From the human T2T-CHM13v2.0 reference genome, Homo sapiens, in the NCBI RefSeq assembly GCF_009914755.1, contig NC_060925.1: a DNA stretch of 64,000 bases; one strand, written 5' to 3'. How positions within the stretch are numbered: position 1 is the stretch's first letter; every line of letters starts with the position of its first letter. The notes beneath the pieces are model-generated. The model did not search any database. It was not told the DNA's origin and saw only the letters and a program-made list of their open reading frames with translations. Positions 12,284 through 14,886 of this stretch are shown here, in pieces. A program made the position numbers and the translations under genes.

Positions 12284-13379
12284 GCTATCTTAATTTAATT
12301 CCAATGTGGTCTGAGAGCAGACATTGTATGGTTTCTATTATTATAAATTGGTTAAGCTGTGCTTTATGGCCCAGAATGCAGCCTGTCTTAGTGAATGTTC
12401 TGTGGGAGCTTGAGACGAATGTGTTTTCTGCTGTTGCTGGATGAAGTATTCTATAGACACCAATTATATCCAGTTGATTGATGGTGTTGTTGAGTTCAAC
12501 TATGTTCTTACTGATTTTCTGCCTGCTGAATCTGTCCATTTCTCAGAGGGATGCTGAAGTCTTCAGCTATACTAGTGGATTCATCTATTTCTCCTTGTAG
12601 GTCTGTCAGTTTTTGCCTCCATAGTTTGCTGCTCTGTTGTTAGGCACATACCCATTAAGGATTTAACTATGTCTTCTTGGAGAATTGACCCATTTATCAT
12701 TATGTAATGTCTCTCTTTATCCCTGATAATTTTCCTTGCTCAGAAGTCTGCTCTGAAATGAATATCGCTACTCTCACATTCTTTTCATTAGTGTTAACCT
12801 GTTATATCTTTCTCCATCTCTTTACTTTTAATCTATATGTGTCTTTGTATTTATTTTTTATTTTTTTTTAATTTTTTTTTCTGTGGGGTCAGCCAGGAGA
12901 GAGGGGGGACAGGTGACTGGTCCATCCCTGAGGCAAGGATCCCAGCACCTACCAGGCTTCCCCCGAGACCAACACTCCGCAGCTCTGGGAGGAAGTGGAG
13001 AGCCCCAGAGTCTGGCGAACTTGGCAGGACGTGAGAGAACAGCTCAAGGGAGAACCATTCCAGTCCCTTCCATGGCCCCAGGAGGTGGGAGACAGGCCCT
13101 CCCCATTCTGCAGGTGAGAAAGCAAGGCTCTGAGAGGGACAGTAGCTTATATAGGGGACACAGCACAGGCAGGTGGCAGAGGCAGAAATAAAACCCTTGT
13201 GGGTGGAAGGCGCAGGTTCTTCCACCCCATGGGAGTCCCACCATGGCTGGCTAGGAGGCTGAGATACCCACAAGGAAAAGCCTGAAGTGGCAGCAGAGCC
13301 TGGAGATGGGGCTGAGGGAAGAAGGAGGAGGAGCGGGGAGAGGGAGACAGGTGTCTCAGGAGACAGAACCGCAGAGTGA

Positions 13380-13545
13380 GTTTAGTGCTTGGGGATTAGG
13401 CTGACTGACCTGGCTTTGCCACTTACTAGCTACATGTCCCTGGCATAGGACCTAGTGTCTCTGAGCCTCAGTTTCTTCATCCAAAAAAATGGAAATGGCA
13501 CCACCACAGGGCTGCTGTGTCATATGAGAAGGTACTGTGTGTGGG
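13380..13545 (+). mobile_element. MIR fragment carried inside the retro-insertion
   Basis: GGCTTTGCCACTTACTAGCT..TCTCTGAGCCTCAGTTTCTTCATC..AAAATGG. Confidence 0.75.
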
Positions 13546-14176
13546 CGATGCATACTCTCTGCCCACTACCTATGGGGCTGGGCTGCCCGCCCGGCTCGCC
13601 GTGGCACACCTGCACGACACCGAGCAGTGAGGAGCAGCGAGTCTTTGTTGAGATGGGCTGCAAGCAGCCCTCTGGTCCAGATGAACTCCCTCAGGCCGAG
13701 CCTCATCTCACCCAGCCCCGGCTTTCCTCCTTCCCAAGACACGGGGCCTGGGGAAGACCCTGCCCTGTCCCTGCACGAGGCCTTGATCCTTGCCTACAGT
13801 TTTCTGACTGTTGTGTGCTTCAAGGAGATGTGGATAAGGATCCCTCTCCTCATATCAAACCTGGTGCTTCTAAGCTGTGCATGCTGCAGGAGCGCCTGTG
13901 GGCATGGAGGCAGCAGGCCTATGTCTGGATTCTGCCCTCTGAGGGCCACTAGGCTGCATGGGGTCATCTTCTAGGCTCACTCTCCTACCACAGAGCTGCT
14001 ACCAAGGAACTCCAGTCCAAAGCGTGGCTGCAAGCCTCTCATTCCCCAGACTGAGCCTGTACTGTTTGGTTGTCTCATGAAGACAAATATGGAAGAGACT
14101 AATGGAAAGCCCAAAAGAGAAGCTGAGATGTGGTTCGCCATCTGCCTTTGGTCTTGGCAGCCCAGGGGTTTGGGCC

Positions 14177-14478
14177 CTTTTTTTTTTTTTTTTTTAAACA
14201 CGGAGTCTCACTCTGTCTCCCAGGCTGGAGTACAGTGGCACGATCTCAGCTCACCACAACCTCTACCTCCCGGGTTCAAGCGACTCTCCTGCCTCAGCCT
14301 CCTGAGTAGCTGGGATTACAGCCACATGCCACCACACCTGGCTAATTTTTGTATTTTTAGTACAAATGGGGTTTCACCATGTTGGCCAGGCTGGTCTCGA
14401 ACTCCTGACCTCAGGTGATCTGCCCACCTCAGCTTCCCAAAGTGCTGGGATTACAGTTGTAAGCCACCGCGCCCGGCT
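14177..14478 (-). mobile_element. AluSx-like, inside the retro-insertion
   Basis: Full antisense Alu, TSD GGTTTGGGCC. Confidence 0.95.
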
Positions 14479-14886
14479 GGTTTGGGCCTTTTCTGTACAT
14501 TGCCTGTCCCTGTAGGGGCTGGCATGCTGTCCTGGGTTCATCCCAGTGCCCAGGTCCACTGACAGTATCTAGCTTGAGGTGCTAGCGTAGCCAGCTGAGA
14601 CCAAACCCCAGGGAGTGGCTGAGAATCTGAATCTCCAGTACTCTCCCTGTCCCTCCCACTCTGGAGTTAAGAACATGTTCCCCAGGAGACCAGATGATAC
14701 TCCACTTTCAGCTGTGTGCCCTCCCCTGTTGCCTGGGATGGCTGTGACTTGGGCCCCAACAATGGCAGTAGTGCCCTCTATCAGGATCCCCTCCCCAAGT
14801 GATGGGGCCTTCAGTCAGGGCATGGTGGGCAGTCTCTTGAGGGCCAGGCAGGCCTCTGGTGTCTTTGTATTTAAAGTGGGTATCTT

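What the first reader, a model, noticed from the sequence alone, without database searches (positions are those of the whole stretch)
12839..14873. Candidate retrotransposed excised intron: 2 kb insert whose poly(A) tail is joined exactly at a 3' splice site
Seen: the host L1 reads ...ATCTATATGTGTCTTTGTATTTA|AAGTGGGT... and is split by ~2 kb of GC-rich non-L1 DNA. GTGTCTTTGTATTT(A) is duplicated perfectly at 12839-12853 and 14859-14873, there is a ~28 nt T-run at 12853-12880, and the minus-strand target reads CTTT/AAATAC. Established: a 14-15 bp TSD, an A-tail and a TT/AAAA-like nick are hallmarks of L1 ORF2p target-primed reverse transcription. Seen: the minus-strand 3' end is CCAGTCACCTGTCCCCCCTCTCTCCTGGCTGACCCCACAG-AAAAAAAAAA. 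That is a branch-point-like TCAC, an 18/19 pyrimidine tract and a terminal CAG, with no AATAAA/ATTAAA before the tail. The body has no credible ORF, carries MIR relics and looks like ordinary intronic DNA. Its 5' end (CAGAGG..) is not GT, consistent with 5' truncation. Inference: the template was a spliced-out intron whose free 3'-OH at the AG was non-canonically adenylated (surveillance-type tailing) and captured by L1 in trans. This would be a route for copying intronic or regulatory DNA that is neither a processed mRNA pseudogene nor a normal 3' transduction.
Basis: partly seen in the sequence, partly recalled or inferred. Interest (0 to 1): 0.88.

Follow-up and report, generated by a model that had tools for sequence, protein, structure and literature searches.

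The report
Retrocopied Drosha-cut piece of SREBF2 intron
A 2 kb insert on chromosome 1 is an old LINE-1-made DNA copy of a discarded piece of SREBF2 intron 16, running from where the miR-33a hairpin is cut out to the last base of the intron, so it is a rare genomic fossil of an RNA-processing by-product.

Summary
A perfect 15-bp target-site duplication (12839-12853 and 14859-14873) flanks a 27-nt A-tail and a 1978-bp body, read on the minus strand, inside an old L1.

The donor is unique: chr22, the intron that hosts mir-33. Papers place miR-33a in SREBF2 intron 16. The copy is about 92% identical to it.

- **3' end:** the match stops exactly at the intron's final G (CCCACAG). The donor continues GTGGTCC, a 186-nt coding exon with a 62%-identical paralogue beside the mir-33 copy on chr17 (SREBF1 locus by recall). 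The donor has no A-run and no AATAAA.
- **5' end (new):** it is not a random truncation. It falls within 1 nt of the Drosha cut on the 3' arm of pre-miR-33a.

The template was therefore the Drosha-cut-to-3'-splice-site fragment (about 1.96 kb of a 2471-nt intron). It acquired an A-tail and was copied full-length by L1. Non-canonical adenylation is my inference; a template jump is the rival.

There is precedent. [quoted passage not shown] I rate this a new variant of a known kind, from a single example. Estimated age is about 20-40 Myr.

The parts
12560..12838 (-). Host L1 (old, antisense to the window + strand), left flank of the insertion
   Evidence: About 78-82% identity to 39 other scored genomic copies, out of 2616 first-look candidates. 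The name L1 comes from recall of the sequence.
12839..12853 (.). Target-site duplication, left copy (GTGTCTTTGTATTTA). The priming nick on the + strand is ...GTATTT(A)/AAG, an L1 endonuclease-like TTT/AAA site.
   Evidence: family D7, 100% identity. A single copy is present in 5 of 5 L1 paralogues.
12854..12880 (-). A-tail of the retrocopy: 27 nt, 24 A and 3 T on the minus strand, joined directly to the intron's terminal AG
   Evidence: The donor has GTGGTCC here, so the tail is not templated by the donor.
12881..12920 (-). Copied 3' splice-site region of SREBF2 intron 16: branch-point-like TCAC, 18/19 pyrimidine tract and terminal CAG. Base 12881 corresponds to the last base of the intron.
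   Evidence: The alignment with donor L011 ends at 7755, immediately before exon 7756-7941.
12881..14858 (-). Body of the retrocopy (1978 nt). It matches chr22 donor G000:C22:42379795/6-42381754, which is the Drosha-cut-to-3'-splice-site fragment of the mir-33-hosting intron.
   Evidence: the only other copy in the genome. (alignment); 1800 of 1948 aligned positions identical, K2P 0.081.
14177..14478 (-). Sense-oriented Alu carried in with the template RNA. It is present at the same place in the donor intron.
   Evidence: The donor gap is 304 nt against 302 nt here. The Alu aligns throughout. Its own flanking repeats are family D12.
14853..14858 (-). 5' end of the copy (CAGAGG on the minus strand). 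It corresponds to donor L011 5796/5797, at the 3' edge of the mir-33 hairpin, which is the Drosha 3'-arm cut within 1 nt.
   Evidence: Rfam RF00667 hit at L011 5730-5798. hsa-miR-33a-3p is listed as the 22-mer equal to L011 5775-5796 (PMC12860219). Pairing table. Alignment.
14859..14873 (.). Target-site duplication, right copy
14874..14882 (-). Host L1 resumes (AAGTGGGTA), then is interrupted by a later Alu
   Evidence: The L1 paralogues continue AAAGTGGGTTTCTTGTAGA after the duplicated word.

Best explanation
The insert is an L1 (ORF2p, target-primed reverse transcription) retrocopy of a discarded RNA-processing by-product. That by-product is the 3' fragment of SREBF2 intron 16.

**Shown**
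- The fragment's 5' end was made by Microprocessor (Drosha) cleavage on the 3' arm of the pre-miR-33a hairpin.
- Its 3' end was made by the second step of splicing, which leaves a free 3'-OH at the intron's terminal AG.
- The whole ~1.96 kb fragment was copied end to end, so it is a full-length copy and not a truncated one. It includes a resident sense Alu.
- It inserted at a TTT/AAA site in an old L1 on chr1, with a 15-bp target-site duplication.

**Inferred**
- The fragment had been debranched from the 5' intron piece.
- It received a non-templated A-tail from a non-canonical poly(A) polymerase of the TENT4B/TRAMP kind, which is known to tail excised-intron intermediates of snoRNAs.
- That tail let ORF2p prime on it.
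- The event dates to roughly 20-40 Myr ago. It postdates the Alu insertion in the donor intron and is probably neutral at its present site.
For: **(1) L1 hallmarks.** There is an exact 15-bp target-site duplication, a 27-nt A-tail, and a TTT/AAA target. The undisrupted structure is seen in 5 of 5 L1 paralogues.

**(2) Unique donor.** Only one other match to each half exists in the 3.1-Gb assembly, at C22:42379795-42380162 and 42380467-42381754. The two halves are collinear, and the Alu fills the gap.

**(3) 3' boundary is exact.**
- The copy ends at donor L011 7755, the G of CCCACAG. The next donor bases are GTGGTCC against AAAAAAA in the copy.
- L011 7756-7941 is an open 62-codon exon ending AAG|gtgagg.
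- That exon has a 62%-identical paralogue at C17:17760159-17760356. An Rfam mir-33 hit lies about 90 nt upstream of the paralogue.
- Six collinear exon matches between the two loci confirm a paralogous gene pair.
- Titles and abstracts listed place miR-33a in intron 16 of SREBF2.

**(4) 5' boundary.**
- The upstream exon ends CAC|GTGAGT at L011 5284|5285, so the intron is 2471 nt.
- Rfam mir-33 (81 bits, gathering score 50) lies at L011 5730-5798.
- The copy begins at L011 5796 (C) or 5797 (A).
- hsa-miR-33a-3p is listed as the 22-mer equal to L011 5775-5796, so the annotated Drosha 3' cut is 5796|5797.
- In the MFE fold a 2-nt overhang would put the cut at 5795|5796.
- The cut lies about 11 positions above the 7-bp lower stem.
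- The chance that a random truncation point in a 2471-nt intron falls within 1 nt of this site is about 3/2471 = 0.0012 (my arithmetic).

**(5)** The 5' intron piece plus hairpin (L011 5285-5795) has no second copy in the genome.

**(6)** There is no AATAAA on the sense strand of the body.

**(7) Precedent for the pathway.** TENT4B oligoadenylates trimmed excised introns that carry snoRNAs (review PMC7988573, passage). Type-2 snoRNA retroposons reach the 3' splice site (PMC1687206).
Against: - It is a single example. No second case was sought genome-wide, because the assembly cannot be scanned as a file here.
- The A-tailing enzyme, debranching and the place of capture are not observable in DNA.
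- The tail (27 nt, with 3 T) is longer than the short oligo(A) tails I recall for TRAMP-type tailing. The tail alone cannot separate tailing from a template jump.
- One base at the 5' junction is ambiguous. The C at 14858 may be templated by L011 5796 or may be untemplated. The match to the annotated cut is therefore within 1 nt and not exact.
- The cut site is taken from a primer table that lists the mature 3p sequence and from folding, not from Drosha cleavage data.
- A Drosha 3' fragment carries a 5' phosphate and, from recall, is expected to be degraded quickly by XRN2. An untrimmed 5' end is therefore somewhat surprising.
- No other primate genome was available, so the empty site and the age are not verified. 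The age rests on a recalled substitution rate.
Confidence: 0.85

Rival explanations
1. The template is the same Drosha-cut-to-AG fragment, but it was never adenylated. ORF2p began reverse transcription on the poly(A) tail of another RNA (L1, Alu or an mRNA). While still inside that tail it jumped end-to-end onto the free 3'-OH of the untailed intron fragment.
For: - The scar would be identical: an A-run abutting the AG.
- Template switching is one of the mechanisms discussed for chimeric L1 insertions such as U6/L1, alongside RNA ligation (bioRxiv 10.1101/2025.02.02.635956, passages).
- The tail contains three T, arranged A9 TT A9 T A6.
Against: - No non-A remnant of a first template lies between the tail and the target-site duplication. 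Known chimeras usually keep part of the L1 3' end (passages).
- Tailing of excised-intron intermediates is an established activity.
- Weber's snoRNA retroposons show the same direct tail without a chimeric partner.
Confidence: 0.2
2. The template was the whole excised (debranched) intron, A-tailed at the AG. The 5' end is an ordinary L1 5' truncation that happens to fall at the hairpin, or was caused by the reverse transcriptase stalling on it.
For: - Most L1-mediated insertions are 5' truncated (recall).
- The hairpin is very stable: -62 kcal/mol for 131 nt, z-score -3.6. It could impede a polymerase.
Against: - A structural block should act at the base of the stem, at L011 about 5807-5812. 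The copy instead runs 11-16 nt into the paired lower stem and stops within 1 nt of the annotated cut.
- A random coincidence has a probability of about 0.0012.
Confidence: 0.08
3. The template was a conventional polyadenylated transcript. Candidates are an intron-retaining or prematurely terminated SREBF2 RNA using a cryptic poly(A) site, internal priming on a genomic A-run, or an orphan 3' transduction from an upstream retroelement.
For: These are the common sources of non-exonic retrocopies (recall). A sense Alu with an A-run lies inside the fragment.
Against: - The donor has no A-run after the AG; it reads GTGGTCC.
- There is no AATAAA on the sense strand.
- The end is exact to the base at a splice acceptor.
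- The copy runs about 1.3 kb past the internal Alu A-run.
- No L1 or SVA sequence is attached at the 5' end, and the 510 nt upstream of the copied segment in the donor are intron sequence preceded by exon 16.
Confidence: 0.02

Closest known systems
Type-2 snoRNA retroposons (snoRTs), Weber 2006, PLoS Genet, PMC1687206 (passages read; supplementary figures not seen)
   Same: Both are L1-type retrocopies (target-site duplication, short A-rich tail) of a piece of an excised intron. The 5' end is set by an RNA-processing event and the 3' part is downstream intron. [quoted passage not shown] He proposed TRAMP-like polyadenylation after splicing.
   Different: Here the 5' end is a Drosha endonucleolytic cut next to a miRNA hairpin, not the snoRNP-protected 5' end of a snoRNA. 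No snoRNA or any other Rfam family is in the fragment. The functional RNA (miR-33a) is left out of the copy, so nothing protects or defines the fragment except its two processing ends.
[quoted passage not shown]
   Same: They are L1-mediated retrocopies from miRNA loci whose 5' ends the authors attribute to Drosha cleavage. Their A-tails are attached without a recognised poly(A) site.
   Different: Those copies contain the precursor hairpin, and the tail sits at the end of the precursor. This copy starts after the hairpin and ends at a splice acceptor. The authors argued that retrocopies should not come 'from the internal intron'; this locus is a counter-example.
Processed pseudogenes (mRNA retrocopies)
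   Same: The machinery and scars are the same: ORF2p target-primed reverse transcription, a target-site duplication, an A-tail and a TTTT/AA-like target.
   Different: This copy contains only intron sequence. It has no exon, no exon-exon junction and no poly(A) signal.
'Retro-DNAs', Tang & Liang, F1000Res 2024, PMC11195612 (passages)
   Same: These are retrocopies of non-exonic genic sequence. [quoted passage not shown]
   Different: In the passages I read, that remark is a conjecture without end-mapping. Here both RNA ends are mapped to processing sites.

Membership tests
L1 ORF2p-mediated trans retrocopy (TPRT insertion) | Target-site duplication of about 7-20 bp flanking the insert | tested here: met
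   15 of 15 identical at 12839-12853 and 14859-14873. A single copy is present in 5 of 5 L1 paralogues.
L1 ORF2p-mediated trans retrocopy (TPRT insertion) | 3' A-tail abutting one copy of the duplication | tested here: met
   27-nt tail at 12854-12880, 24 A and 3 T on the minus strand.
L1 ORF2p-mediated trans retrocopy (TPRT insertion) | Endonuclease target resembling 5'-TTTT/AA | tested here: met
   The + strand priming site is GTATTT(A)/AAGT. The consensus itself is recalled.
L1 ORF2p-mediated trans retrocopy (TPRT insertion) | A transcribed parental locus elsewhere, in RNA-sense orientation relative to the tail | tested here: met
   The donor lies on the C22 + strand inside a gene, in the same sense as its exons.
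Type-2 snoRT (Weber 2006) | 5' end equals the mature 5' end of an intronic snoRNA | tested here: not met
   At gathering score, Rfam finds only mir-33 in the 10-kb donor locus and nothing in the insert.
Type-2 snoRT (Weber 2006) | Downstream intron included up to or near the 3' splice site, then an A-rich tail and a target-site duplication | tested here: met
   The copy ends at the last intron base, L011 7755. The family is defined.
Processed pseudogene | Spliced exons of the parent mRNA, with a tail after a poly(A) signal | tested here: not met
   No exon sequence is present. The flanking exons 5116-5284 and 7756-7941 are both excluded. There is no sense-strand AATAAA.
L1/SVA 3' transduction (including orphan) | The donor segment lies directly downstream of a source element and ends at a poly(A) site | tested here: not met
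   Upstream of the donor segment are the mir-33 hairpin, 445 nt of intron and exon 16. There is no poly(A) signal.
miRNA retrocopy (Pan & Lin 2020) | The copy contains the pre-miRNA hairpin | tested here: not met
   There is no mir-33 hit in the window. The copy starts at the last 2-3 nt of the Rfam hairpin model.
Drosha 3' cleavage product of an intronic pri-miRNA | 5' end at the Microprocessor cut on the 3' arm, about 11 bp above the basal junction, with a 2-nt stagger to the 5p start | tested here: met
   The copy starts at L011 5796/5797. The listed 3p end is 5796. The lower stem runs about 11 positions to 5807. Direct cleavage data are not available here, and the 11-bp rule is recalled.
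Excised spliceosomal intron | 3' end at the terminal AG of an intron whose acceptor is used | tested here: met
   CAG|GTG with the open reading frame continuing LNH|VVQ. The paralogous exon begins at the equivalent point on C17. No transcript data were available here.

The most novel reading that the evidence does not exclude
This locus may be the first recognised member of a general class. In that class, intron fragments bounded by two processing events are A-tailed in the nucleus and retrotransposed by L1. The 5' boundary would be a Microprocessor or other endonucleolytic cut, and the 3' boundary the splice acceptor.

If so, mammalian genomes hold a base-resolution fossil record of ancient Drosha cuts and acceptor use. 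It would show that cropped introns still complete splicing in the germline. It would also mean that intronic regulatory DNA can be copied to new loci without any exon or poly(A) signal. A sense Alu inside the fragment may be what recruits ORF2p.
Probability: 0.3. Interest if true: 0.72.

Novelty: new variant of a known kind. Interest (0 to 1): 0.62.

Why it matters
Both ends of this retrocopy map to RNA-processing cuts: Drosha at the 5' end and the spliceosome at the 3' end. A piece of genomic DNA therefore records, to the base, an RNA intermediate that is normally destroyed within minutes.

It gives independent, in-vivo, germline evidence for three points:
- A miRNA-hosting intron was both cropped and spliced.
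- The leftover 3' fragment survived untrimmed long enough to gain an A-tail.
- L1 can copy RNA that is purely intronic.

It extends Weber's snoRNA-anchored class to a fragment with no stable RNP. It contradicts the stated assumption that retrocopies cannot derive from an internal intron (PMC7692494).

It also suggests a simple genome-wide screen. Take retrocopy ends and compare them with annotated acceptors and with miRBase cut sites. That screen could date and map Microprocessor cleavage across mammalian evolution.

As a single, probably neutral insertion it has no evident consequence for SLC2A1-DT or for SREBF2.

Tried and rejected
**Searches that gave nothing**
- PDB sequence search with the exon peptide found no match, in the wrong frame or in the right frame. 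The gene identity therefore rests on the C17 paralogue with its adjacent mir-33 copy and on papers.
- My first translation and genome search of the exon were one base out of frame. I repeated them correctly.
- Kim & Kim 2007 (processing of intronic microRNAs) is not held. It is cited from recall and from a sentence in PMC6097652.

**Literature searches for a prior description**
I looked for a retrocopy bounded by a Drosha cut and a 3' splice site.
- ('excised intron', retrotransposition, LINE-1): 12 papers, 9 listed.
- 158 papers, 15 listed.
- (Drosha, retrocopy, intron, pri-miRNA): 2 papers.
- (snoRT).
- (six phrase variants): 7 papers. By their titles and abstract openings none concerns retrocopied introns; I opened none of them.

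I found only the partial precedents named above. This covers the held library only. Supplementary files were not opened (Weber Figure S2 section 3; Pan & Lin; the retro-DNA tables), and one of them could list this locus.

**Explanations rejected**
- Internal priming, a cryptic poly(A) site and 3' transduction (see rival explanations).
- The reverse direction of copying, chr1 to chr22. The chr1 copy carries the tail and the target-site duplication inside an L1, whereas the chr22 copy sits between conserved exons.

**Not attempted**
- A genome-wide census of similar copies.
- An empty-site check in other primates, because none are held.
- Naming repeat subfamilies, because no repeat library is available.
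Full report
**1. The observation**

GTGTCTTTGTATTTA occurs at 12839-12853 and again at 14859-14873 with no mismatch (family D7). Directly after the left copy comes a 27-nt T-rich run, 12854-12880 (T6 A T9 AA T9). On the minus strand the body ends ...CCAGTCACCTGTCCCCCCTCTCTCCTGGCTGACCCCACAG and then the A-tail begins.

The flanks are an old L1. Bases 12560-12853 match 39 other scored copies at 78-82% identity, out of 2616 first-look candidates. In 5 of 5 fetched paralogues the duplicated word occurs once and is followed by AAAGTGGGT-like sequence. The repeat is therefore a true target-site duplication in a formerly continuous L1.

The priming nick on the + strand is GTATTT(A)/AAGT, an L1-endonuclease-type TTT/AAA site. 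The body (12881-14858, 1978 nt) has 0.566 G+C. It has no sense-strand ATG ORF longer than 66 aa and no sense-strand AATAAA.

**2. The donor**

Searching the window's own 3.1-Gb assembly with 12881-14176 and with 14479-14858 gave one non-self full-length match each. These are C22:42380467-42381754 and C22:42379795-42380162, on the opposite strand and collinear. The donor gap of 304 nt equals the 302-nt Alu at 14177-14478, and the Alu aligns throughout. The Alu therefore sat in the donor RNA and was carried over.

Over 1948 aligned positions there are 148 mismatches (107 transitions, 41 transversions; K2P 0.081) and 12 gap events. With a recalled neutral rate of about 1-1.5 x 10^-9 per site per year on each lineage, this suggests roughly 20-40 Myr. 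That figure is an inference and was not checked against other primates.

**3. The 3' end**

In donor locus L011 (C22:42374000-42383999) the match stops at 7755, the G of CCCACAG. The donor continues GTGGTCCAGCTG..., whereas the copy continues with A's.

L011 7756-7941 is an open 62-codon block (VVQLLTCDLLLSLRT...AYRK) ending AAG|gtgagg. It has a 62%-identical paralogue at C17:17760159-17760356. An Rfam mir-33 hit lies about 90 nt upstream of that paralogue on the same strand. Six collinear exon-sized protein matches link the two loci.

The titles and abstract openings listed place miR-33a in an intron of SREBF2, and in intron 16 for the chicken gene; all 25 papers counted by that search hold the words miR-33a, 'intron 16' and SREBF2. 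I opened none of them, and the name SREBF1 for the chr17 locus is recalled. The AG is therefore the acceptor of the exon that follows the miR-33 intron. The donor has no A-run and no poly(A) signal, and nothing resembling an L1 or SVA lies upstream.

**4. The 5' end (new)**

The upstream exon ends CAC|GTGAGT at L011 5284|5285. The reading frame joins LNH to VVQ, and the intron is 2471 nt (5285-7755).

Rfam places mir-33 at L011 5730-5798 (81 bits against a gathering score of 50). The copy's homology begins at L011 5796 (C) or 5797 (A). The window reads TSD-C-AGAGGCC and the donor reads ...GCATCAC-AGAGGCC.

A primer table lists hsa-miR-33a-3p as the 22-mer identical to L011 5775-5796 (PMC12860219). 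The same string is used as the miR-33a forward primer in PMC10452681. Because the 3' end of a 3p miRNA is the Drosha cut, the annotated cut is 5796|5797.

In the minimum-free-energy fold, G5735 pairs with U5793. A 2-nt overhang would then put the cut at 5795|5796, which would make the C templated. Either way the cut lies about 11 positions above the 7-bp lower stem (5801-5807). This is the distance I recall for Microprocessor.

The copy is therefore not 5' truncated. It starts within 1 nt of the Drosha cut, 11-16 nt inside the paired lower stem. A polymerase stalled by structure would not be expected to stop there. A random truncation point would land within 1 nt of it with probability of about 3/2471. 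The 5' intron piece plus hairpin (5285-5795) has no other copy in the genome.

**5. Mechanism**

Shown:
- The template was an RNA whose 5' end is the Drosha 3'-arm cut and whose 3' end is the intron's terminal AG.
- It was copied completely and inserted by an L1-type event.

A free AG 3'-OH exists only after the second step of splicing. This RNA had therefore been through both cropping and complete splicing. That fits the consensus that Microprocessor cleavage of intronic hairpins does not prevent splicing (sentence in PMC6097652; Kim & Kim 2007, recalled and not held).

Inferred:
- After cropping, the intron leaves the spliceosome as a branched two-piece molecule.
- Debranching frees the linear 1.96-kb 3' piece.
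- A non-canonical poly(A) polymerase adds A's to its 3'-OH. TENT4B does this to trimmed excised introns that carry H/ACA snoRNAs (PMC7988573).
- ORF2p uses the tail to prime.

The branch-point-like TCAC is unchanged between copy and donor. That is compatible with a debranched template but does not prove it.

The main rival for the tail is an ORF2p template jump from another poly(A) RNA onto the untailed 3'-OH. DNA alone cannot exclude it, and I give it about 0.2. The sense Alu inside the fragment may have helped recruit ORF2p. A paper with that thesis for 3'UTR Alus appeared in the listing (PMC5199112, title and abstract opening only); this point is speculation.

**6. Comparison with what is known**

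The nearest precedent is Weber's Type-2 snoRNA retroposons. They comprise a snoRNA with a mature 5' end plus downstream intron, 'in rare cases ... up to its 3' splice site', with an A-rich tail and a target-site duplication. TRAMP-like tailing was proposed for them (PMC1687206). The present copy has the same 3' logic. It fails the defining 5' feature, because there is no snoRNA, and it is bounded by a Drosha cut instead.

[quoted passage not shown] Those contain the hairpin, and the authors argued that retrocopies should not arise from an internal intron (PMC7692494).

The retro-DNA paper only conjectures that excised introns might be captured (PMC11195612). A 2025 survey of L1 chimeras says nothing about excised introns or Drosha in the passages shown (12 of 31 places; 'Drosha' occurs 0 times).

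Five literature searches found no description of a retrocopy bounded by a Drosha cut and a splice acceptor. This holds for the library searched, with supplementary files unseen.

**7. Verdict**

This is a full-length L1-mediated retrocopy of the Drosha-cut-to-acceptor fragment of SREBF2 intron 16. It is a new variant of a known, rare kind, known so far from this single locus, and probably neutral where it sits. Its value is as a base-resolution fossil of an RNA-processing by-product and as the seed for a genome-wide census.

Noticed in passing
window 14883-15570: Two head-to-tail Alu elements lie 9 nt beyond the right target-site duplication. The first is flanked by GTATCTTG-like repeats (14876-14883 and about 15211) and ends in an (AAAAT)n-type tail. 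These are later, independent insertions into the same L1.
   Followed up: no
window 19914-20020 (+) and 52019-52107 (-): Two U6 snRNA-like sequences (Rfam RF00026, 99.7 and 58.7 bits). The first is full-length and matches the annotated RNU6-880P. Both are likely further L1-mediated retrocopies of a non-mRNA in the same window.
   Followed up: no
window 26305-26420 (-): An Rfam Metazoa_SRP hit just above the gathering score (72.7 against 70). It spans only 116 nt for a 299-nt model, so it is probably an Alu or 7SL-related fragment and not an SRP RNA gene.
   Followed up: no
window 14177-14194 versus L011 about 6448-6480: The retrocopy keeps a clean 18-A Alu tail followed by the Alu's own flanking repeat (GGGCCCAAAC). 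The donor intron now reads A8 GCTGGTGGGGGTGCCCAAATG. At this spot the copy preserves the older state and the parent has changed since.
   Followed up: partly
L017 (C17:17758659-17761856): On chr17 (SREBF1 locus by recall) the mir-33 hairpin lies only about 90 nt upstream of the acceptor of the homologous exon. The equivalent Drosha-to-acceptor fragment there would be tiny, against 1.96 kb in SREBF2.
   Followed up: partly
window 14818-14826 versus L011 about 5822: A 9-nt segment (CCACCATGC on the minus strand) is present in the copy and absent from the donor, close to the 5' end. Whether it is an insertion in the copy or a deletion in the donor cannot be decided without an outgroup.
   Followed up: no
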